Positions 2,826-40,622 of a stretch of 48,574 nucleotides of DNA are shown here, piece after piece. The DNA lies in sequence record SRR22947725_605. One strand, given 5' to 3'. Positions within the stretch are counted from its first letter, which is position 1, and each line of letters begins with the position of its first letter. The translations under genes were made by a program, and so were the position numbers. A model generated the notes under the pieces. That model was not told where the DNA came from and did not search any database. It saw only the letters and a program-made list of their open reading frames with translations.

Positions 2826-4844
2826 ATGTCTAAAGATTTGATAAACGTAATAGAAGATCTTCTTGAAGAGAAGGCACCTAAGAGTGGTGAGCATATGACC
2901 AAAAAGGATATGATTACCAACCCTCAGGAAAAAAAGCCTATGAAAGAAGATAACATAGCAGAAGCTGATCAAAATGCCGACAACGCTAAGAATTTAACTA
3001 GCGATGGTAAGACAGCTGATATGGCTACAATTAAACCAGGAAGCGGTAAACAGTCTCCTGAAGTAGCAGCTGACAAAGGACCCCATAACCAAGCAGGTGA
3101 AAATGCTGGTGATGAAGGTGATATGAATAAAGGGAAGATTGCTAGTGATGCATCTGCAACGGTCGAGGCTGATAAAGGTCCACATGATCAGTCTACCGAT
3201 AACGCAGGCGATACTAATTCAATAGATGGTATAAGCGCTAAACCTTCTCAAGCATCTGCAGAAGCAGAAGCTAACAAAGGACCTCATAACCAATGTGACG
3301 ATCCAGGAATGAGCGAAGAGACAGAATCAGAAGAAGAAGCTGAAACTGTTGATGAAAAAGCTAAGATGGATCCGGTTGGTCAAGAAGATGGTGACGTAGA
3401 TAACGATGGCGACGAAGATGAGTCAGATGATTATCTAAAGAAAAGAAGAAATGCTATCAATAAAGCAATGAAAAAAGAAGAAGTAACTTATGAAGATGCT
3501 ATGTATGTTCTTCATGCTGGTGAAATCACAATCGAAGAAGGTACTGCCAACTGGGATTGGAATGAGCTTAAAAACTTAGAAGAAGAAAACTGGTATGAGT
3601 TAATGAAAGAACTAACTGAAGAAGAAGAAAGTATCTTCGCTGATGAGTTAGCTCAATTAGCTGAATCAATTGAAGAATCAGAAGCTGAATATGATGCTGA
3701 AACAGAAGAAAAAGAAGCTGTAGAAGAAGAGCATCACGAAAAAGATGAAGACGGTAACGTTATCGAGCATCCTATCGAAGATGAAGCTGAAAAAGCAACT
3801 ACTGAAGAAGTAGAAGAAGTAGAAGAAGCTTTACCAGCAGGTGAACCAATGCAAAAAGTTGGTGATGCTAAAGGTCAAGATACTACTATTCAGACTGATG
3901 CTAATATGAAAAATTTACCTGATCAAGATAAAAAATCAGCTAAAGGTGAAGCAGAAACAAAAGGTGGTGATGTAGGCGCTGGTCCACATAATCAAGCAAA
4001 CGATCCTCATGACACACCAACTATTGCAAATCCTGCAGGACCTACAAAGATGGCAAAAGCTTCAGTAAAAGCAGATGCTAATAAAGGTGCTCATGATCAA
4101 GCAAGTGATCCAATTGTTAATAAAATGGCAGCAGAAGAAACTGAAACTGATTTAGAAGCAGAATTAGATGAAGATTTTAAACGTAAAGCTGCTGTAGTAT
4201 TTGAAACAGCTGTAAATGAAAAAGTAGATCTAGTAGTTGAGAAGATTCAAGCTGACTACGAAGAGAAACTTAATGAAGAGAAAGCTGCTATTAGCGATAA
4301 GATTAACGAGTATGTTGATTATGCAGTTAAAGAATGGTTAGAAGAGAATGCATTAGAAATTAAGTACTCTCTTAGAACTGAAGTAGCTGAAAACTTTATC
4401 TCAGGAATGAGAAAACTATTTGCAGAAAACTATATCGATATCCCTGAAGATGATATCTCAGTAGTTGATGAGTTAACTGAACAAATAGATTCTTTCAAAG
4501 AACAAGTAGAAGAGTCTCAGACTCTTGCAGAAAATTTACAAAAAGAAGTCCTTGATTATAAAAAGGCTTCAATTGTAGAAGAGGTATCATCAGAGCTAAC
4601 ACAGACACAGAAAATTAGATTAGAAAAATTAGCTGAGTCAGTAGATGCTAAAGATACTGAAGAGTTCCAAGCCAAGTTAAGTGACCTCAAAGAGGCTTAC
4701 TTTAATCAAAGCGAAGAAAACTCAAAGCTTCTAACCTCATTGAGTGAAGAAGTGATTGGTACTGACGAAGTAATTACAGAAGATCATAACGACTCTACAG
4801 TAAGTGCATACGCGCAGTTCTTATCAAAAACTATAAGTAAATAA
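2826..4844 (+). CDS. gp22: Prohead scaffolding protein gp22 with long N-terminal extension
   Basis: C-terminal gp22 core: LDEDFKRKAAVVFETAV, YVDYAVKEWLEEN, LRTEVAENF...LFAENYIDIPE. Lies between gp21 and gp23. AGGAG precedes ATG 2826. Confidence 0.93.
   Translation: MSKDLINVIEDLLEEKAPKSGEHMTKKDMITNPQEKKPMKEDNIAEADQNADNAKNLTSDGKTADMATIKPGSGKQSPEVAADKGPHNQAGENAGDEGDMNKGKIASDASATVEADKGPHDQSTDNAGDTNSIDGISAKPSQASAEAEANKGPHNQCDDPGMSEETESEEEAETVDEKAKMDPVGQEDGDVDNDGDEDESDDYLKKRRNAINKAMKKEEVTYEDAMYVLHAGEITIEEGTANWDWNELKNLEEENWYELMKELTEEEESIFADELAQLAESIEESEAEYDAETEEKEAVEEEHHEKDEDGNVIEHPIEDEAEKATTEEVEEVEEALPAGEPMQKVGDAKGQDTTIQTDANMKNLPDQDKKSAKGEAETKGGDVGAGPHNQANDPHDTPTIANPAGPTKMAKASVKADANKGAHDQASDPIVNKMAAEETETDLEAELDEDFKRKAAVVFETAVNEKVDLVVEKIQADYEEKLNEEKAAISDKINEYVDYAVKEWLEENALEIKYSLRTEVAENFISGMRKLFAENYIDIPEDDISVVDELTEQIDSFKEQVEESQTLAENLQKEVLDYKKASIVEEVSSELTQTQKIRLEKLAESVDAKDTEEFQAKLSDLKEAYFNQSEENSKLLTSLSEEVIGTDEVITEDHNDSTVSAYAQFLSKTISK
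3069..4100 (+). repeat. Five dispersed G(P/A)H(N/D)Q peptide repeats in the gp22 extension
   Basis: ADKGPHNQ, ADKGPHDQ, ANKGPHNQ, GAGPHNQ, ANKGAHDQ. Confidence 0.85.
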
Positions 4845-33453: not shown

Positions 33454-34196
33454 AAACTCTTTTAATTCAAATTGATATATTCCAAGATCAGTATACAGAT
33501 ATTGAAGATAGAACTACAGCTACAGCATCCGTATTAAAAGAAAGAAATGACGATGTTAAATCTAAGTCAGTTATTTTTAGTGGAGCAGCCGCACAGAGAT
33601 TTGGTTGGGATTATACTTTAGAAGGTAAGAGAGAAACTAAACATAGATCTCCTTGCTTTGAAATATTTAAAATTTTTAGAGATGATAAGTACCTTGAATA
33701 TGATAGAATATTGTATTTAGATACAGATGTATATTATTACCCAGACAGTCCTAATATTATTGATTATTACCCAGATGAAGGTTTTCATGCTGTAAGTAGA
33801 TTAGGTAAAATATTTGATGAAGGTAAAGAACCTGATCACTTATCAAGAATTAATAAAAGCCATTTAATAGAAAAATATAGACAAAATTATTTTAATTCTG
33901 GAGTATTACTATTAGATAGAAACACTATACTTAAGATGAAACCTTTTTTATCACATGAACAAATAGAAGAATGGTTAACAGCTAGAGGTCTCTGGTCAGA
34001 TGATCAATCAGCTATTAACATAGCTGCAGTTGAGTCAGGTGTTAACATAGTTCCGATGCATCAGTATTGGAATCAAATGGATAAAAGATATAAAGATGGT
34101 TACATAGTACATCTTAAAGGAAGTATAAAAAATAGATCAAATGTATTTGATGATAGAGCGAAGGAGTATTTAAATGCCGTTTCCAGCAGTAATTGA
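33450..34196 (+). CDS. GT8-like glycosyltransferase
   Basis: YDRILYLDTD, YFNSGVLL, DQSAIN, WN, IVH. Confidence 0.82.
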   Translation: MKTLLIQIDIFQDQYTDIEDRTTATASVLKERNDDVKSKSVIFSGAAAQRFGWDYTLEGKRETKHRSPCFEIFKIFRDDKYLEYDRILYLDTDVYYYPDSPNIIDYYPDEGFHAVSRLGKIFDEGKEPDHLSRINKSHLIEKYRQNYFNSGVLLLDRNTILKMKPFLSHEQIEEWLTARGLWSDDQSAINIAAVESGVNIVPMHQYWNQMDKRYKDGYIVHLKGSIKNRSNVFDDRAKEYLNAVSSSN

Positions 34197-34776
34197 AACA
34201 GAAAAAGATGGAAGAGAAAAAGCTTACGATGTTTATACTCGATTAGCTAAAGATAGAATTTTATTTTTAAATGGTGTAGTAGAAGAAAATATGAGTAATC
34301 ATATAGTAGCTACTTTGTTATGGTTAGAGAGTCAAAACCCTAAAGCACCTATTAATATGTATATAAATTCACCTGGAGGTAGTGTAGTAGCTGGAATGGC
34401 TATCTATGATATTATGATGTATATTCAGTCTCCAATAACTACCATTGTTACTGGTCAAGCAGCTTCGATGGGCTCTTTACTTGCTTGTGCAGGAGCTAAA
34501 AGATTAGTAACTACAAATAGCAGACATATGATTCATCAGCCTCTAGGTGGTGCTTCAGGACAGGCTACTGAAGTAGAAATAGCTTTCAAAGAACTGCAGC
34601 GATGGAAAAAAGTTTTAACTGAAATTTATGTTAGACATACAGGTCATAGTTTTGTAAAACTTGAAAAAGATATGGATAGAGATAACTTTATGACAGCAGC
34701 AGAAGCTGTAGAATATAATTTAGCTGATGAGGTAGTACATGAACGAGTTAGACATGCTGAAAAAAACAATAGCTGA
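34174..34776 (+). CDS. clpP: Clp protease proteolytic subunit
   Basis: YINSPGGSV, GQAASMGS (catalytic Ser), MIHQP (His), DRDNFM (Asp). Confidence 0.96.
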   Translation: MPFPAVIETEKDGREKAYDVYTRLAKDRILFLNGVVEENMSNHIVATLLWLESQNPKAPINMYINSPGGSVVAGMAIYDIMMYIQSPITTIVTGQAASMGSLLACAGAKRLVTTNSRHMIHQPLGGASGQATEVEIAFKELQRWKKVLTEIYVRHTGHSFVKLEKDMDRDNFMTAAEAVEYNLADEVVHERVRHAEKNNS

Positions 34777-34885
34777 TGAAACAGAATATAACCATAAGCT
34801 TCTAATTAGAATAAAAGAATTATCTGAAGAGAATGCTAAACTTAAAGAACAAATAGAAATATTAGAGAAAAAAAAGGGCTTTTGA
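34754..34885 (+). CDS. 43-aa coiled-coil peptide, absent from the ORF track
   Basis: MLKKTIADETEYNHKLLIRIKELSEENAKLKEQIEILEKKKGF; fills the gap up to the terminator. Confidence 0.55.
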   Translation: MLKKTIADETEYNHKLLIRIKELSEENAKLKEQIEILEKKKGF

Positions 34886-34895
34886 GCCCTTTTTT
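34870..34895 (+). terminator. Intrinsic (symmetric) terminator closing the island
   Basis: AAAAAAGGGCT-TTTG-AGCCCTTTTTT. Confidence 0.88.
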
Positions 34896-34935
34896 AGTTG
34901 CCTTTTGACGAGAAGTATACGATAATAAAGTATAA
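34896..34935 (+). promoter_or_regulatory. Early sigma70 promoter P1
   Basis: agTTGCCT-N17-GATAAT-AAAGTATAA. Confidence 0.8.
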
Positions 34936-34953: not shown

Positions 34954-35178
34954 ATGACTAGACCAATTTCAGTAGCAAGATTAAAAGCAAATATTTTAAG
35001 CAGTTCTAATAAGCCAGAAATTATTAGAATTTTAGTTGATACTTTACCTTATCAGATTAATAGAGAATTAAAAGAAGAAGTAAAAAAGCAGCTTATTAAA
35101 AGATATGTTATGGTTAAAGAGTTAGAAGCTTCTTTAATAAAGTTTGGAAAAATGGAAAAAAACAGTTGCACTTTGTAG
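34954..35178 (+). CDS. Hypothetical early protein
   Basis: AAGGA RBS behind P1. Confidence 0.7.
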   Translation: MTRPISVARLKANILSSSNKPEIIRILVDTLPYQINRELKEEVKKQLIKRYVMVKELEASLIKFGKMEKNSCTL

Positions 35179-35203
35179 GAAAAGTAGTTATAATAAAGTA
35201 TAA
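35164..35203 (+). promoter_or_regulatory. Early sigma70 promoter P2
   Basis: agTTGCAC-N17-TATAAT-AAAGTATAA. Confidence 0.85.
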
Positions 35204-35831: not shown

Positions 35832-36187
35832 CAAAATTAAAAAGAACTGATTCTGAACCTAGAGTAGTATATAAGGTTGGAATTACAAGTTCTAAAGATG
35901 CTATGACTAGACTTAACTATAGAGGTATTGATGAACCTAATCCTATCTCTGAGCATTTCTCTGATATTAAAGTTATGTATAGTACTAAACAAAAGTATAC
36001 AAGATTAGAAGCTGAGCATTTAGAGAAAACAGTTATGATGGGTATCTGTAAAGATAAGAATGAAGAGTTTTTTCATAATTGGTGGGAACCTAATAAGATC
36101 TCTGGTATTACTGAAATGCGTAAATGGGATTATGATGAAATACAAAAAATCTTTACTTTTTTTAAAAATAATGAAAAAAACAGTTGA
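35792..36187 (+). CDS. GIY-YIG superfamily (T5orf172-like) protein
   Basis: VYL...YKVGITS...R...A..LE...G.TE pattern. Confidence 0.55.
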   Translation: MDFKTEKRYKVYLAKLKRTDSEPRVVYKVGITSSKDAMTRLNYRGIDEPNPISEHFSDIKVMYSTKQKYTRLEAEHLEKTVMMGICKDKNEEFFHNWWEPNKISGITEMRKWDYDEIQKIFTFFKNNEKNS

Positions 36188-36221
36188 TTTATGGTTAAAA
36201 GTAGGCTATAATAAAGTATAA
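36182..36221 (+). promoter_or_regulatory. Early sigma70 promoter P3
   Basis: agTTGATT-N17-TATAAT-AAAGTATAA. Confidence 0.85.
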
Positions 36222-36240: not shown

Positions 36241-36486
36241 ATGCAGATTACAGATTTAGTAGAATTATTAGAAGCAATGAGTTCAGAAGAGCAAGATGAA
36301 CTTGCTACTCAACTTATTAATAAGTATCCTTCAGTAGGTGCTGCTCTAGCGACTAAGATCAATATAGCTCATCAGGATAGATTTTATACTGAGAGTGAAG
36401 CAATGAATGATTCATTAGAAGCTAGAGGTCATGTTGGTTTTGATCAAGGTAGAAAATTAGTTGCTAAAGAGTTAGGAATTAGTTAA
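36241..36486 (+). CDS. Hypothetical early protein
   Basis: GAGGG RBS behind P3. Confidence 0.7.
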   Translation: MQITDLVELLEAMSSEEQDELATQLINKYPSVGAALATKINIAHQDRFYTESEAMNDSLEARGHVGFDQGRKLVAKELGIS

Positions 36487-36492
36487 AAAAGT

Positions 36493-36532
36493 AGTTGCCT
36501 TTTGATTAAAAAGAGGTTATAATAAAGTATAA
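36493..36532 (+). promoter_or_regulatory. Early sigma70 promoter P4
   Basis: agTTGCCT-N17-TATAAT-AAAGTATAA. Confidence 0.85.
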
Positions 36533-36573
36533 AATGAAGAAAAGGAAATATAAAATGACATAGCGATAGTAAA

Positions 36574-36730
36574 GGTTGAGAGGCTGAATAAGGGAGAGCG
36601 ATAGGCTCGACAGTCTCAGAGGTTTACAAGTCTGGTAGGACTCAAGGAACCGTAACCTCATCTAAAAACTGCCCGCTTCTACCGCTGAGGGGTATACCTA
36701 GGTAGAAGTGATTGTAAGAGAGCCCCTCAT
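36574..36730 (+). ncRNA. Candidate structured RNA with two nested stem-loop domains and an H-type pseudoknot
   Basis: GC-enriched non-coding stretch. Stems: TGAGA..CTG/CAGTCTCA, GAGC/GCTC, GAGGTT.AC/GTAACCTC, AGTCT/GGACT, CGCTTCTACC/GGTAGAAGTG. The loop TGAGGGGT pairs with downstream GCCCCTCA. Confidence 0.65.
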
Positions 36731-36754
36731 AAATTTAATTAAGGAGAGATTTTT

Positions 36755-36961
36755 ATGAATAATACGTTAAAAGTAGGAAGCCCAGTTTATTCAAAGTTTG
36801 GTCATAGTAAGATTAAGAAGATAGAACTTTGCGAAAAACAAGGCGAAAAGTACGGTATTGATATAAAAGAGATTCCTTTTGATTTAGCTGATAGGTGTAT
36901 TTTTGATCTAGATAACGGTCATTGGTCTTATGGATATGATCTAGATTATATTCCTTTCTAA
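36755..36961 (+). CDS. Hypothetical early protein
   Basis: AAGGAG RBS; FDLDNGHWSYG. Confidence 0.72.
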   Translation: MNNTLKVGSPVYSKFGHSKIKKIELCEKQGEKYGIDIKEIPFDLADRCIFDLDNGHWSYGYDLDYIPF

Positions 36962-37038
36962 CTGCCCTTAGCTCAGCTGGATAGAGCAGCTGCCTTCTAA
37001 GCAGCAGGCCGGGAGTTCGAATCTCTCAGGGCAGGCCA
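36962..37038 (+). tRNA. tRNA-Arg (anticodon TCT) with encoded CCA
   Basis: Acceptor stem CTGCCCT/AGGGCAG, D-arm GCTC/GAGC, anticodon arm GCTGC-CTTCTAA-GCAGC, T-loop TTCGAAT, 3' GCCA. Confidence 0.97.
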
Positions 37039-37069
37039 AACTTTTTTAAAAAAAACTTAGTCTTAGAAA

Positions 37070-37095
37070 AACTTTTTTAAAAAAGTTAGTATAAT
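37070..37095 (+). promoter_or_regulatory. AACTTTTT-box promoter within the 18-bp palindrome AACTTTTTTAAAAAAGTT
   Basis: The box starts 20 nt before TATAAT; no TTG -35 element. Confidence 0.6.
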
Positions 37096-38753: not shown

Positions 38754-39091
38754 GACAATTCATATATGATAGTTGGAATGCTGTTATGAATTTTAACTAT
38801 AACCCTTTAAAAAATATTCCTGATTTGCAAGTTAGACATATGGTAATGCAGATACTTGCATGGATGTGGTGTATAGCTTTTTCGAGTTACTTTGGTAGTA
38901 TGTGGGTTTTTGGTATAACTACTATTGCTCATATTTTTCTTATATCAGCTATTGTAGTAACTGTAGCTACATTTACATCAGCAAGAAAATTAAATTTTAC
39001 ATATCATACACCTAGTCGTTCTAGAGCAATTTATGTAAACGGAAAAAGAGTTGAACTAGATCCTAAGGATGTAGGCGGAGAACATGAATAA
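38750..39091 (+). CDS. Two-TM membrane protein
   Basis: NPLKNIPDLQVRHMVMQILAWMWCI followed by a second hydrophobic helix. Confidence 0.7.
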   Translation: MRQFIYDSWNAVMNFNYNPLKNIPDLQVRHMVMQILAWMWCIAFSSYFGSMWVFGITTIAHIFLISAIVVTVATFTSARKLNFTYHTPSRSRAIYVNGKRVELDPKDVGGEHE

Positions 39092-39587
39092 AGTTTATTA
39101 TACTTGGCAAAAAATAGATCATCTAGTGCATGGAATTGCATTAGATCTTTATCGTAAAGAATGGGTTCCTGATTATATAGTTGGTGTTGTAAGAGGTGGA
39201 GCTATTCCAGGTATTCAATTATCTCATATAATGGATAAACCTTTTTTACCTTTAGATATAAGATTAAGAGATAATGTGGTGTCAAACGCTATGGGATTCC
39301 AACATTTTTTTGATATTGCAACTCATTTCTCTGAAGATAAAAAAGTATTGTTTATTGACGATATAAATGATAGTAGTGGTACATTAGCATATATTGATGA
39401 TAGAATGTTAAGCAATAGAGATAACTTAACTTTTAAATATGAATTTGCTATGGTATTAGAAAGAGTAAGTGCTCCTTATTCAGCGTTGTTTGTAGGAGAA
39501 GAATTAACAGAAAAAGCAACAGATGGTGACCCTGATGCTTGGATAGTTTTCCCTTGGGAGAACCAATTTAACATACCCGAGGATTAA
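39084..39587 (+). CDS. Purine phosphoribosyltransferase (Gpt-like)
   Basis: IVGVVRGG, PRPP-binding loop VLFIDDINDSSGTL, WIVFPWE. Confidence 0.88.
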   Translation: MNKVYYTWQKIDHLVHGIALDLYRKEWVPDYIVGVVRGGAIPGIQLSHIMDKPFLPLDIRLRDNVVSNAMGFQHFFDIATHFSEDKKVLFIDDINDSSGTLAYIDDRMLSNRDNLTFKYEFAMVLERVSAPYSALFVGEELTEKATDGDPDAWIVFPWENQFNIPED

Positions 39588-40622
39588 ATGAGAATTGAAA
39601 CAGATATTAAATTAGATTTTAATGATGTACTTTTAAAACCTAAAAGAAGTACACTTGAATCTAGATCACAAGTAAGATTAGAGAGAAAATTTACTTTTAA
39701 AAATAGTAACCGCCAATGGGAAGGTATTCCTATTATTGCTTCTAATATGGATGCAACAGGTACTGTAGAGACATACAAAGTACTTAATCGTTATAAGATA
39801 CTTACCTTTCTTCATAAACATTATAATATTGATACTTTGTATGATCTTTTTGCTTCTGAAAAGAGAGAGAATTTAGCTTACTCAATGGGTATTACAGATT
39901 TAGATACTCAGAAATGGAAAATGCTAAAAAGTAAACTTCCAAAAGATACTATAAAGTTTGTTAATATTGATGTAGCAAATGGATATACTGAAAGGTTTAT
40001 TAATTTTATAAAAAGTTTTAGAGAAGAAAATCCTAATACTATTATAGTTGCTGGTAATGTATGTACTGCTGATCAAACGCAAGAGCTTATTTTAAGCGGA
40101 GCAGATATTATTAAAATTGGTATAGGACCAGGTTCTGTATGTACTACTAGAATACAAACAGGAGTAGGTTTTCCTCAATTATCTGCAGTTATAGAATGTA
40201 GTGATGCTGCTAATGGATTAGGTGGACATGTTATTTCAGATGGTGGTTGTACATCTCCAGGCGATGTAGCAAAAGCATTTGGTGCTGGAGCTCACTTTAC
40301 TATGCTAGGTGGTATGTTAGCAGGTCACGAAGAATCTGGTGGTGATCTTGTTAATAGAGATGGTGAAATGGTAAAGCAGTTTTATGGTATGTCATCTGAA
40401 GTAGCTCAGAATAAGTATGATGGTGGGTTAAGTAAATATAAAAGTGCTGAAGGTAAAGTTGTTACTATGCCATTTAAAGGACCTTTAGAACCTACTGTAC
40501 AAAGTATATTAGGTGGTTTAAGATCTGCTTGTACTTATGTTGGAGCAGCTAAGATAAGAGAATTAAGTAAGTGTAGTACCTTTATTTTAGTGAATAATAC
40601 TCATAACAAAGTTTACGAATAA
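39588..40622 (+). CDS. guaC: GMP reductase
   Basis: KLDFNDVLLKPKRSTLESR, IDVANGY, KIGIGPGSVCTTR, FYGMSS; 344 aa with no CBS domains. Confidence 0.95.
   Translation: MRIETDIKLDFNDVLLKPKRSTLESRSQVRLERKFTFKNSNRQWEGIPIIASNMDATGTVETYKVLNRYKILTFLHKHYNIDTLYDLFASEKRENLAYSMGITDLDTQKWKMLKSKLPKDTIKFVNIDVANGYTERFINFIKSFREENPNTIIVAGNVCTADQTQELILSGADIIKIGIGPGSVCTTRIQTGVGFPQLSAVIECSDAANGLGGHVISDGGCTSPGDVAKAFGAGAHFTMLGGMLAGHEESGGDLVNRDGEMVKQFYGMSSEVAQNKYDGGLSKYKSAEGKVVTMPFKGPLEPTVQSILGGLRSACTYVGAAKIRELSKCSTFILVNNTHNKVYE

What the first reader, a model, noticed from the sequence alone, without database searches (positions are those of the whole stretch)
36574..36730. Unannotated pseudoknotted RNA with its own early promoter, upstream of tRNA-Arg
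Seen: one of the longest non-coding stretches in the window, markedly GC-richer than its flanks and largely pairable. Domain 1 is 36577-36618 with an inner GAGC/GCTC hairpin. Domain 2 is 36619-36659 with an inner AGTCT/GGACT hairpin. Domain 3 is a 10-bp stem (36674-83 with 36701-10) whose loop TGAGGGGT (36686-93) pairs with GCCCCTCA (36722-29). I could not match it by eye to tRNA, tmRNA, RNase P or a common riboswitch. Inference: an early phage ncRNA such as a protein decoy, antitoxin mimic, ribozyme or exonuclease-resistant RNA, or a cis-regulator of ORF 36755. With the minigene, this is the best candidate for an undescribed system in the window.
Basis: partly seen in the sequence, partly recalled or inferred. 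Interest (0 to 1): 0.82.

Follow-up and report, generated by a model that had tools for sequence, protein, structure and literature searches.

The report
Double-pseudoknot leader RNA of marine phages
The GC-rich gap holds a real, conserved, folded RNA of a family not yet catalogued, found so far only in a group of large marine T4-like phages; what it does is not yet known.

Summary
Window 36552-36730 is the most GC-rich 150-nt stretch of the window (0.49 against 0.33) and matches no Rfam 15 family.

Pattern scans found 29 copies (13 distinct sequences, five lineages). All are in marine or aquatic phage contigs. None is in 185,579 prokaryote genomes.

The conserved block starts just before ATG-ACA-TAG and ends at the last pseudoknot arm. 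Flanking genes differ between lineages.

Covariation supports a plus-strand fold (99.2% of cells paired; 14 of 43 pairs change on both sides; slid controls 0-2):
- a three-way junction (P1, P2/P2a, P3/P3a);

Each of the 12 distinct sequences tabulated (the 13th, read separately, has one too) has a sigma-70-type promoter, a Shine-Dalgarno element and a two-codon ORF upstream. A translated ORF follows 19-33 nt downstream, with no clear terminator. tRNA-Arg(UCU) follows in two of five lineages.

Function is inferred only. My best guess (about 0.4) is a 5' module that shields early transcripts from 5'-end-dependent decay. A trans-acting stable RNA (about 0.3) is the main rival.

The parts
36495..36523 (+). 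Sigma-70-type promoter-like site: TTGCCT, 17 nt, TATAAT. It is the fourth copy of a repeated early-promoter cassette; the other copies start at 34895, 35163 and 36181.
   Evidence: Relatives carry their own TTTAC(A/T)-17-TATAAT or TGGTATAAT sites at the same place (read by eye). No transcription start was mapped.
36542..36548 (+). Shine-Dalgarno-like AAGGAAA, 6 nt before the ATG of the mini-ORF.
   Evidence: All 12 distinct sequences listed there have a purine-rich SD-like element (AGGA, GAGG, GAGAG or GGAAG) 7-12 nt upstream of the ATG, although the upstream sequence itself differs.
36555..36563 (+). Two-codon mini-ORF ATG-ACA-TAG. This is the start of the conserved block.
   Evidence: ATG and TAG are invariant in 13 of 13 distinct sequences. 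The middle codon is ACA in 10 and TTA in 3 (L077/L090, L091/L092, L096). Translation is inferred, not shown.
36564..36572 (+). Conserved single-stranded spacer CGAWAGUAA. It is 9 nt in every copy, between the stop codon and P1.
   Evidence: No indels in these columns in A3.
36573..36658 (+). Three-way junction:
- P1: 36573-78 with 36653-58
- P2: 36580-86 with 36611-17
- P2a: 36596-99 with 36605-08
- P3: 36621-25 with 36647-51
- P3a: 36629-32 with 36639-42
   Evidence: P1 has 2 pairs changed on both sides, P2 has 1, and P2a has 1 (three pair types). P3 and P3a never vary on both sides. RNAalifold recovers all of these helices on the MAFFT alignment.
36634..36673 (+). Pseudoknot PK2: P3a loop GGUAG (36634-38) pairs with CUGCC (36669-73), directly 5' of P4. 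The A-rich linker 36659-68 lies between P1 and this arm.
   Evidence: Found by a scan of all unpaired columns. It is the only helix of 4 or more pairs kept in all sequences. Tool count: 60 of 60 cells paired, A-U/U-A at one pair and G-C/C-G at another, slid controls 23-53% paired.
36674..36710 (+). P4 hairpin: 36674-83 with 36701-10.
   Evidence: 8 of 10 pairs change on both sides and 100% of cells are paired.
36687..36728 (+). Pseudoknot PK1: P4 loop GAGGGGU (36687-93) pairs with GCCCCUC (36722-28).
   Evidence: 2 pairs change on both sides, and U.G becomes C-G in 4 sequences. L074/L081 and L078 keep a 7-bp GGGGCGG/CCGCCCC pairing one column out of register (read by eye).
36741..36961 (+). 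Shine-Dalgarno AAGGAGAG and a 68-aa ORF of unknown function, co-oriented, starting 25 nt after PK1.
   Evidence: no Pfam or PHROG family. The ORF family follows the RNA in 4 of 13 loci.
36962..37038 (+). tRNA-Arg (anticodon TCT), with no promoter-like site or terminator-like site between it and the RNA's promoter.
   Evidence: The same tRNA follows the RNA in L080 and in the most divergent lineage, L081.

Best explanation
Shown:
- Window 36552-36730 is one member of an uncatalogued family of structured RNA elements carried by a clade of roughly 150-kb, AT-rich marine T4-like phages.
- On the plus strand it folds into a three-way junction. The third arm's loop pairs with the five bases just before a fourth hairpin (PK2). 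That hairpin's loop pairs with a 3' segment (PK1).
- It always sits behind a sigma-70-type promoter-like site, an SD-like element and a two-codon ORF.
- It always sits directly in front of a co-oriented ORF, with no clear terminator.

Inferred mechanism: it is a cis-acting 5' module of early transcripts.
- A ribosome loads on the mini-ORF and stops at UAG. The junction then begins 16 nt from the first base of the P-site codon, which is about the edge of the mRNA channel. Ribosome and folded RNA can therefore coexist.
- The bound ribosome plus the compact double-pseudoknot fold obstruct enzymes that work inward from the 5' end. These are RNase E, which scans from the 5' terminus, or a 5'-to-3' exonuclease of the RNase J type if the unknown host has one.
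- This would prolong the life of the downstream early mRNA or tRNA precursor. It may also leave the knot behind as a stable RNA.
For: Reality of the element:
- GC island.
- 29 copies and 13 distinct sequences.
- The RNA block is 91-93% identical between syntenic phages, against 70-72% for the 68-aa ORF and 79-80% for the DUF932 gene.

Fold:
- 97.9% of cells paired, with 9 pairs changed on both sides, on the MAFFT alignment.
- 99.2% paired, with 14 of 43 pairs changed on both sides, on the model-fitted alignment; slid controls gave 0-2.
- PK2 is paired in 60 of 60 cells.
- RNAalifold agrees on the nested helices.

Strand: 45 G.U cells (43, 2) would be A.C mismatches on the minus strand.

Leader position:
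- A promoter-like site lies upstream in every lineage read.
- An SD-like element is kept in all 12 sequences listed, on differing upstream sequence.
- The spacer between UAG and P1 is fixed at 9 nt.
- The next ORF starts 19-33 nt after PK1, with no consistent terminator.

Precedents, read only as stated:
- RNase E scans from the 5' end and is hindered by obstacles (PMC9943677, start of abstract only).
- Flaviviral xrRNAs combine a three-way junction with an apical-loop-to-downstream pseudoknot and block bacterial RNase J1 in vitro (PMC5760640, passages).
- The T4 gene 32 leader as an mRNA stabiliser is recalled, not checked.
Against: - No transcript end, half-life or ribosome binding was measured.
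- Metatranscriptome contigs cover the element only at low depth (about 5), like its flanks. One contig includes the promoter region, so they show neither a stable species nor an RNA 5' end.
- The transcription unit in the window is short (RNA, 68-aa ORF, tRNA). The benefit of such an elaborate stabiliser is therefore unclear.
- Only one of four similar promoters in the window carries it.
- The strong conservation of unpaired bases in the junction would fit a specific binding partner at least as well.
- The SD and ATG could be inherited from promoter-cassette shuffling rather than selected.
- No Rfam xrRNA model matched.
- No pairing between the 5' end and the junction was found.
- The host is unknown, so whether it has RNase J is unknown.
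Confidence: 0.4

Rival explanations
1. It is a stand-alone, trans-acting stable RNA. It would be cut from the early transcript and would bind a specific host or phage protein or RNA. Candidates include a decoy for a defence or RNA-processing factor, or a tRNA-related role like the unexplained T4 species 1 and 2 RNAs.
For: - It is an autonomous module with its own promoter, found in differing gene contexts.
- Unpaired bases of the junction, the P2 internal loop and the 5' tail are nearly invariant. P3 and P3a stay invariant even in a scan anchored elsewhere.
- A 3' pseudoknot would protect a processed 3' end.
- It sits in the variable early region, in one transcription unit with tRNA-Arg(UCU) in 2 of 5 lineages. 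In T4, rnaD and rnaC directly follow tRNA-Arg(UCU).
Against: - No terminator defines a 3' end, and a translated ORF always follows within 19-33 nt.
- No sign of an abundant discrete species in RNA-library contigs (these are contigs, so this is weak).
- No similarity to T4 rnaC or rnaD (best model hits E 0.11, none in those genes).
- No candidate partner gene is shared by all contexts. The nearest, a small c0 protein, is near the RNA in 8 of 13 loci.
Confidence: 0.3
2. It is a ligand- or protein-responsive cis-regulator (riboswitch-like) of the gene that follows, including ORF 36755.
For: It has a highly conserved junction domain followed by a 3' domain that varies in sequence but keeps its structure. 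It lies in a 5' UTR position.
Against: - The downstream genes are unrelated between lineages: the 68-aa family in 4 of 13 loci, an 81-aa membrane-type ORF, small hydrophobic ORFs, and tRNAs.
- No alternative pairing that hides the downstream SD was seen.
- P4 and PK1 covary as a fixed structure rather than as a switch.
- No Rfam riboswitch matched at E<=10.
- ORF relatives at about 50% identity lack the RNA.
Confidence: 0.1
3. It is a processive antitermination or RNA-polymerase-modifying element that acts on the polymerase transcribing it. It would resemble the put RNAs of phage HK022 (recalled, not checked).
For: It is promoter-proximal in early transcripts. Its function would not depend on which genes follow. 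Two stem-loops are closed in a junction.
Against: - The unit in the window is short and is followed by an AT-rich palindrome and a new promoter-like site.
- There is only one copy per locus.
- No model of put RNA was available to test.
- The mini-ORF has no role in this scheme.
Confidence: 0.07
4. It is a self-cleaving ribozyme of a new class.
For: It has a compact double-pseudoknot fold with invariant unpaired bases. Such ribozymes are common in phage and marine sequence (general knowledge).
Against: No match to any Rfam ribozyme family at E<=10. No conserved cleavage-site signature was recognised. No joints or ends in laid contigs point to cleavage (weak).
Confidence: 0.05
5. It is not a functional RNA. 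It could be a decayed gene or tRNA remnant, a DNA-level site, or chance complementarity.
For: Single-sequence fold energy on the plus strand is ordinary (z -0.78). The mini-ORF looks like a truncated gene start behind a standard promoter cassette.
Against: - Compensatory changes occur in six of eight helices.
- Indels of 1, 3 and 4 nt in the P2a loop and in P4 exclude a conserved reading frame.
- Conservation exceeds that of neighbouring genes.
- ARAGORN finds no tRNA or tmRNA there.
Confidence: 0.02

Closest known systems
Flavivirus exoribonuclease-resistant RNAs (xrRNA)
   Same: - A three-way junction.
- The apical loop of the third helix pairs with a single-stranded segment downstream of P1.
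- A further hairpin follows directly.
- The element lies upstream of the RNA that would be protected.
- An xrRNA stops bacterial RNase J1 in vitro (PMC5760640, passages read).
   Different: - No Rfam xrRNA model matches.
- It is twice the size.
- A 10-nt A-rich linker lies before the pseudoknot arm.
- It has an extra pseudoknot on P4.
- No pairing between the 5' end and the junction was detected.
- It sits at the 5' end of a DNA-phage transcript behind a translated mini-ORF.
- Nuclease resistance is untested.
T4 species 1 and species 2 RNAs (rnaC, rnaD)
   Same: They are small structured RNAs of unknown function in a T4-type phage. They lie in the same transcription unit as tRNA-Arg(UCU) (here).
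   Different: - No sequence or structure match.
- The T4 RNAs lie after the tRNA and have tRNA-like 3' parts (a T-arm-like GGTTCGAATCC in rnaC and a CACCA end in rnaD, read by eye).
- The T4 RNAs have no promoter, SD and mini-ORF of their own.
Translated minigenes in leaders (lambda bar minigenes; EHEC LEE1 leader minigene)
   Same: A two-codon ORF with its own SD in an early or leader transcript (PMC3262186 and PMC2490762, search listing and abstract starts only; lambda bar recalled).
   Different: Here the minigene is fused at a fixed 9-nt distance to a conserved 165-nt folded RNA. Its codon varies (ACA or UUA) while ATG and TAG do not.
T4 gene 32 mRNA leader pseudoknot
   Same: A pseudoknot in the 5' leader of a T4-type phage mRNA, linked to mRNA stability and translational control (recalled). 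Candidate gp32-leader RNAs are listed in PMC10690425 (passages read).
   Different: The element here is not upstream of gene 32, and its downstream genes vary. It has a three-way junction plus two pseudoknots.
PeSL promoter-terminator cassettes of T4-like phages
   Same: A repeated early-promoter cassette flanks small variable genes. One copy is preceded by a terminator-like hairpin at 34870-34895 (PMC2839356 and PMC4122927, listing and abstract starts only).
   Different: This explains how the module may move and why it starts at an ATG. It does not explain the folded RNA itself.
Candidate structured RNAs mined from IMG/VR (PMC10690425)
   Same: 8,495 unnamed covarying motifs of 29-151 nt from the same kind of contigs. 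This element, or part of it, may be among them.
   Different: The main-text passages I read do not describe this motif.

Membership tests
Any Rfam 15 family | Covariance-model match at the gathering score, or any match at E<=10 | tested here: not met
   Only the tRNA was found in the window. Nothing lay within 36480-36760 at E<=10. No family other than tRNA, tmRNA and a glutamine riboswitch was found in 11 related loci.
tRNA / tmRNA | Cloverleaf or tRNA-like domain detectable by ARAGORN | tested here: not met
   the only gene found is tRNA-Arg at 36962-37038.
H-type pseudoknot | A hairpin loop pairs with a downstream single strand, supported by covariation | tested here: met
   PK1 and PK2.
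Flavivirus-type xrRNA | Three-way junction with the apical loop of the third helix paired to sequence 3' of P1 | tested here: met
   P1/P2/P3 plus PK2. The feature definition is taken from PMC5760640 passages.
Flavivirus-type xrRNA | Pairing of the 5'-end bases with the junction, forming a ring around the 5' end | tested here: inconclusive
   The scan for conserved helices of 4 or more pairs found none. A 2-nt contact between invariant bases cannot be tested by covariation.
Flavivirus-type xrRNA | Halts 5'-to-3' exoribonucleases | not testable with these tools
   Needs an enzyme assay.
T4 rnaC / rnaD | Sequence and structure similarity to the T4 genes | tested here: not met
   Model R1 run with filters off on NC_000866 69000-75000: best E 0.11 and 0.17, both outside rnaC and rnaD.
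T4 rnaC / rnaD | Location beside tRNA-Arg(UCU) | tested here: inconclusive
   True for lineages A (window, L080) and E (L081). No tRNA was found in the loci of L033, L059, L077, L082, L086, L087, L089 and L092. The L078 locus ends too early to tell.
Riboswitch | Consistent association with functionally related downstream genes | tested here: not met
   Downstream genes fall in at least four unrelated clusters.
Known self-cleaving ribozyme classes | Match to the class model | tested here: not met
   No match at E<=10 against the full Rfam 15 library. That these classes (hammerhead, twister, twister-sister, pistol, hatchet, HDV-like) are all in it is recalled, not checked.
Processive antiterminator RNA (put-like) | Similarity to put RNA; terminator read-through in cis | not tested
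   No model was at hand. The function needs an assay.

The most novel reading that the evidence does not exclude
This would be the first phage example of a mechanical 'road-block' RNA. The knot would be built from a three-way junction and two pseudoknots, with the same loop-to-downstream topology as flaviviral xrRNAs. It would be coupled to a ribosome-loading two-codon ORF, and would stop bacterial 5'-end-dependent RNases (RNase J exonuclease or scanning RNase E). The result would be long-lived early phage transcripts or a stable decoy RNA.
Probability: 0.15. Interest if true: 0.85.

Novelty: new variant of a known kind. Interest (0 to 1): 0.66.

Why it matters
Structured RNAs of DNA phages are poorly charted. 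This one has unusually clean comparative support for a complex fold: eight helices and two pseudoknots, from only 13 distinct sequences. It also has a rare arrangement, a translated-looking two-codon ORF at a fixed distance from the fold.

- If it shields transcripts from RNase E or RNase J, it would extend the xrRNA principle from eukaryotic RNA viruses to bacteria. It would also offer a portable mRNA stabiliser.
- If it is a trans-acting RNA, it would join T4 rnaC and rnaD as tRNA-linked phage RNAs whose roles have been open for 50 years.

Either way it deserves a family model and a bench test.

Tried and rejected
- **BLAST of the region against 50,697 phage records:** no match. A 6-kb query matched only tRNA and short coding pieces.
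- **Window's own assembly:** not held. The nearest record, G001, lacks the region.
- **Relatives found through the DUF932 protein and the 68-aa ORF**: apart from identical copies, none carries the RNA.
- **Short-word scans:** the 15-mer and 17-mer scans were mostly chance hits, with 9 true new loci among 52 stretches. Three of the 17 stretches from the 18-mer scan were also chance.
- **Model R2 on 20 related virus records:** found only the known copy in G020. Six metagenome loci were not held and so were not searched.
- **Genome contigs:** 0 hits with the two-anchor pattern. The 18-mer gave one chance hit in a Latescibacteria MAG, which the model did not confirm.
- **RNA runs:** 17 runs were listed and 4 were laid. 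Contigs cover the RNA at depth of about 5, like the flanks, and the huge depth on the tRNA comes from other organisms' tRNAs. This gives no statement on expression, ends or habitat.
- **Long-range helix proposed by RNAalifold** (5' tail UAGCGA with 36712-18): rejected. It is mismatched in the window and L080, and is not formable in L074 or L078.
- **Ideas dropped after reading the alignment:**
  - bypassing, frameshift or read-through at ACA-UAG (stops follow in all frames);
  - a T-box-like tRNA sensor (the UGGU loop is used by PK2);
  - a K-turn in P2 (the bulge is 7 nt, not 3);
  - an anticodon-loop mimic in P4 (not conserved).
- **Identity of non-syntenic flanks**: inflated by free end gaps in AT-rich sequence, so not used.
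- **Format errors, corrected and repeated:**
- **Earlier-findings look-ups:** by sequence and by place they found nothing.

Full report
**What is in the window**

The window is part of a T4-like myophage:
- the major head protein is 51% identical to those of cyanomyophages;
- the family-B DNA polymerase is 41% identical;
- the window has 33% GC overall and almost all genes lie on the plus strand.

Between the ORF ending at 36486 and the 68-aa ORF starting at 36755 there is no plus-strand ORF of 30 aa or more. GC rises to 0.44-0.50 there, as high as in the tRNA next door. The 150-nt window starting at 36581 is the most GC-rich of the whole 48.5 kb: 0.493 against a mean of 0.331, sd 0.046.

ARAGORN finds only tRNA-Arg(TCT) at 36962-37038. 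Rfam 15 finds only that tRNA at gathering scores. Nothing lies inside 36480-36760 even at E<=10 with lax filters.

Single-sequence folding is unremarkable on the plus strand (z -0.78). It is somewhat better on the minus strand (z -2.37). Thermodynamics alone would therefore not have carried the finding.

**Finding relatives**

BLAST against phage records found nothing. Relatives reached through the neighbouring proteins were either identical copies or lacked the element.

Exact-word scans of viral contigs with pieces of the RNA brought in copies at 81-90% identity among many chance hits. A two-anchor pattern returned the same set in viral contigs and 15 stretches in metagenome contigs. It returned none in one genome for each of 185,579 prokaryote species. 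An 18-mer there gave one chance hit, which the model rejected.

A scan anchored only on the 5' tail and the P2 loop returned the same copies plus one new variant, L096. The invariance of the P3 region is therefore not merely a product of my search words.

In all there are 29 copies and 13 distinct sequences, which I group into five lineages:
- A: window and L080;
- B: L037, L053 and L033;
- C: L082, L028 and L088;
- D: L077/L090, L091 and L096;
- E: L074/L081 and L078.

Some viral and metagenome loci are the same contig stored twice, judging by equal contig lengths. Three contigs of 146-157 kb carry the RNA. A covariance model found no further, more distant copy in 20 related virus records.

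**Extent of the element**

In the alignment the conserved block begins at AAAATGACATAG (window 36552) and ends at the 3' arm of the pseudoknot (36728-30). Upstream and downstream sequences of different lineages do not align.

Between syntenic phages the block is 91-93% identical. The flanking 68-aa ORF is 70-72% identical and the DUF932 gene 79-80% at the nucleotide level.

Indels of 1, 3 and 4 nt in the P2a loop and in P4 exclude a conserved reading frame. This includes the 51-aa minus-strand ORF at 36506-36661.

**The fold**

On the MAFFT alignment of 10 distinct sequences, the structure I derived by eye gives:
- 97.9% of cells paired;
- 9 pairs changed on both sides;
- 0-1 such pairs when the 3' partners are slid by 1-3 columns.

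RNAalifold recovers P1, P2, P2a, P3, P3a and P4 on its own.

After alignment to a covariance model, 12 distinct sequences give 99.2% of cells paired and 14 of 43 pairs changed on both sides, against 0-2 in the slid controls. That alignment leans towards the structure. Per helix:
- P4: 8 of 10 pairs changed on both sides;
- P1: 2 of 6;
- P2: 1 of 7;
- P2a: 1 of 4, with three pair types;
- PK1: 2 of 7.

P3 and P3a never change on both sides, so for them the alignment says nothing either way. Lineage E keeps PK1 with an entirely different sequence (GGGGCGG with CCGCCCC), one column out of register; I read that by eye.

One mismatch persists: C.A in P1 of L033 and its two identical copies.

Forty-five G.U cells would be A.C mismatches on the other strand. 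The functional strand is therefore the plus strand, as RNA.

**A second pseudoknot**

I took this as a lead and scanned all unpaired columns for helices of 4 or more pairs kept in all sequences.

Exactly one came out. The P3a loop (window 36634-38, GGUAG) pairs with the five bases directly 5' of P4 (36669-73, CUGCC). The tool count gives:
- 60 of 60 cells paired;
- A-U exchanged for U-A in 5 sequences;
- G-C exchanged for C-G in 4 sequences;
- slid controls 23-53% paired.

P4 can thus stack on PK2, and the two 'domains' form one compact body. Whether that earlier RNA is the same family is untested. Its sequence shares no indexed words with mine.

**What surrounds it**

The promoter-like site TTGCCT-17-TATAAT (36495-36523) is the fourth copy of a repeated cassette. 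In the other three copies the cassette runs into the SD and start codon of an ordinary small gene. One copy follows a terminator-like hairpin. This resembles the PeSL promoter-terminator cassettes described for T4-like phages (PMC2839356, PMC4122927; listing and abstract starts only).

Other lineages have their own TATAAT boxes with TTTAC(A/T) at -35 or a TGG extension (read by eye).

All 12 distinct sequences listed keep a purine-rich SD-like element 7-12 nt before the ATG, although that sequence differs. L096 has one too. ATG and TAG are invariant. The codon between them is ACA, or TTA in lineage D. The spacer to P1 is always 9 nt.

With ACA in the P site, P1 starts at +16, about where mRNA leaves the ribosome (general knowledge). 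A terminating ribosome would therefore abut the junction without having to melt it. This is geometry, not evidence of translation.

Downstream, a co-oriented ORF with its own SD starts 19-33 nt after PK1 in every lineage that could be read. U-runs after PK1 are irregular, and no canonical terminator is present. The downstream genes differ:
- the 68-aa family in 4 of 13 loci;
- an 81-aa ORF in 5 loci, twice behind an extra 67-aa ORF;
- small hydrophobic ORFs in lineages D and E.

tRNA-Arg(TCT) follows in lineages A and E. In E it comes with tRNA-Pro and tRNA-Cys.

**Expression**

Seventeen runs hold parts of the stretch, and I laid four RNA-library runs. Their contigs cover the element at depth of about 5, no more than the flanks. 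One contig identical to the window spans the promoter region. Contig ends are not RNA ends. I draw no conclusion on expression from these data.

**Interpretation**

Shown: this is a conserved, plus-strand, doubly pseudoknotted RNA element, absent from Rfam, confined so far to a group of marine T4-like phages. It always lies between a promoter, SD and mini-ORF on one side and a translated ORF on the other.

Inferred: its role.
- The constant leader position, the lack of a terminator, the ribosome-loading site at a fixed distance and the knot-like fold fit a 5' protective module best. RNase E scans inward from the 5' end and is slowed by obstacles (PMC9943677, abstract start only). Flaviviral xrRNAs share the topology of a junction plus an apical-loop-to-downstream pseudoknot followed by a hairpin, and they stop bacterial RNase J1 (PMC5760640, passages).
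- Against this stand the short transcription unit, the presence on only one of four promoters, the failure of xrRNA models to match, and the strong conservation of unpaired bases, which suggests a specific partner.
- A processed trans-acting RNA is therefore nearly as likely. T4 itself places two unexplained stable RNAs next to tRNA-Arg(UCU), although they are not homologous.
- Riboswitch, antiterminator and ribozyme readings are less likely, for the reasons given under the rival explanations.

**Novelty**

No Rfam family matches. I found no description in the papers I searched. A 2023 survey lists 8,495 unnamed motifs from IMG/VR in supplements that I could not open (PMC10690425), so part of this element may already be listed there.

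I rate it a new family of a known kind (phage leader or non-coding RNA) with an unusual design.

**Limits**
- There are only 13 distinct sequences, and they are shallowly diverged.
- Members were found by exact words, so more distant relatives are missed.
- The host is unknown.
- No experiment was possible.

Noticed in passing
window 34870-34935, 35163-35203, 36181-36221, 36492-36532: There are four copies of one early-promoter cassette (AGTTGCC..17 nt..TATAATAAAGTATAA). Each runs into an SD and a start codon. The first copy directly follows a terminator-like hairpin (34870-34895). This resembles the PeSL promoter-terminator cassettes of T4-like phages.
   Followed up: partly
L087 3950-3998 (-): A glutamine riboswitch (Rfam RF01739, 56.6 bits) sits about 550 nt upstream of the RNA, on the same strand, in a lineage-C relative. 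It lies between a 210-aa ORF and the small c0 ORF.
   Followed up: no
L011 5902-6274 (+): A permuted, betaproteobacterial-type tmRNA gene (tag ANDSEYALAA) lies in a 155-kb phage contig that also has a DUF932 homologue (50% identity). That phage lacks the RNA family.
   Followed up: no
L081 4129-4363 (-): In the most divergent lineage the RNA is followed by a short hydrophobic ORF that runs into a cluster of tRNA-Arg(tct), tRNA-Pro(tgg) and tRNA-Cys(gca).
   Followed up: partly
window 37039-37087: Right after the tRNA (which has an encoded CCA) comes a perfect 15-nt AT-only inverted repeat, AACTTTTTTAAAAAA / TTTTTTAAAAAAGTT. The next promoter-like TATAAT follows at 37090. It may act as a terminator or as a recombination spot.
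   Followed up: no
window 36755-36961; L014-L021 around 3001-3186: The 68-aa ORF has relatives at 44-50% identity in other phage contigs, with a conserved C-terminal motif (CIFDLDNGHW.YG). It matches no Pfam or PHROG family.
   Followed up: no
window 36241-36486: A small ORF (81 aa from the second ATG; cluster c0) lies near the RNA in 8 of 13 loci. It is upstream in lineages A and C, and about 0.8-1 kb downstream in lineage B. It matches no family. It is the only gene that recurs near the RNA across contexts.
   Followed up: partly
window 34174-34776, 39084-40622: Accessory genes near the RNA: a ClpP-family protease, a phosphoribosyltransferase-domain protein, and an IMPDH/GMP-reductase-family protein.
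   Followed up: no
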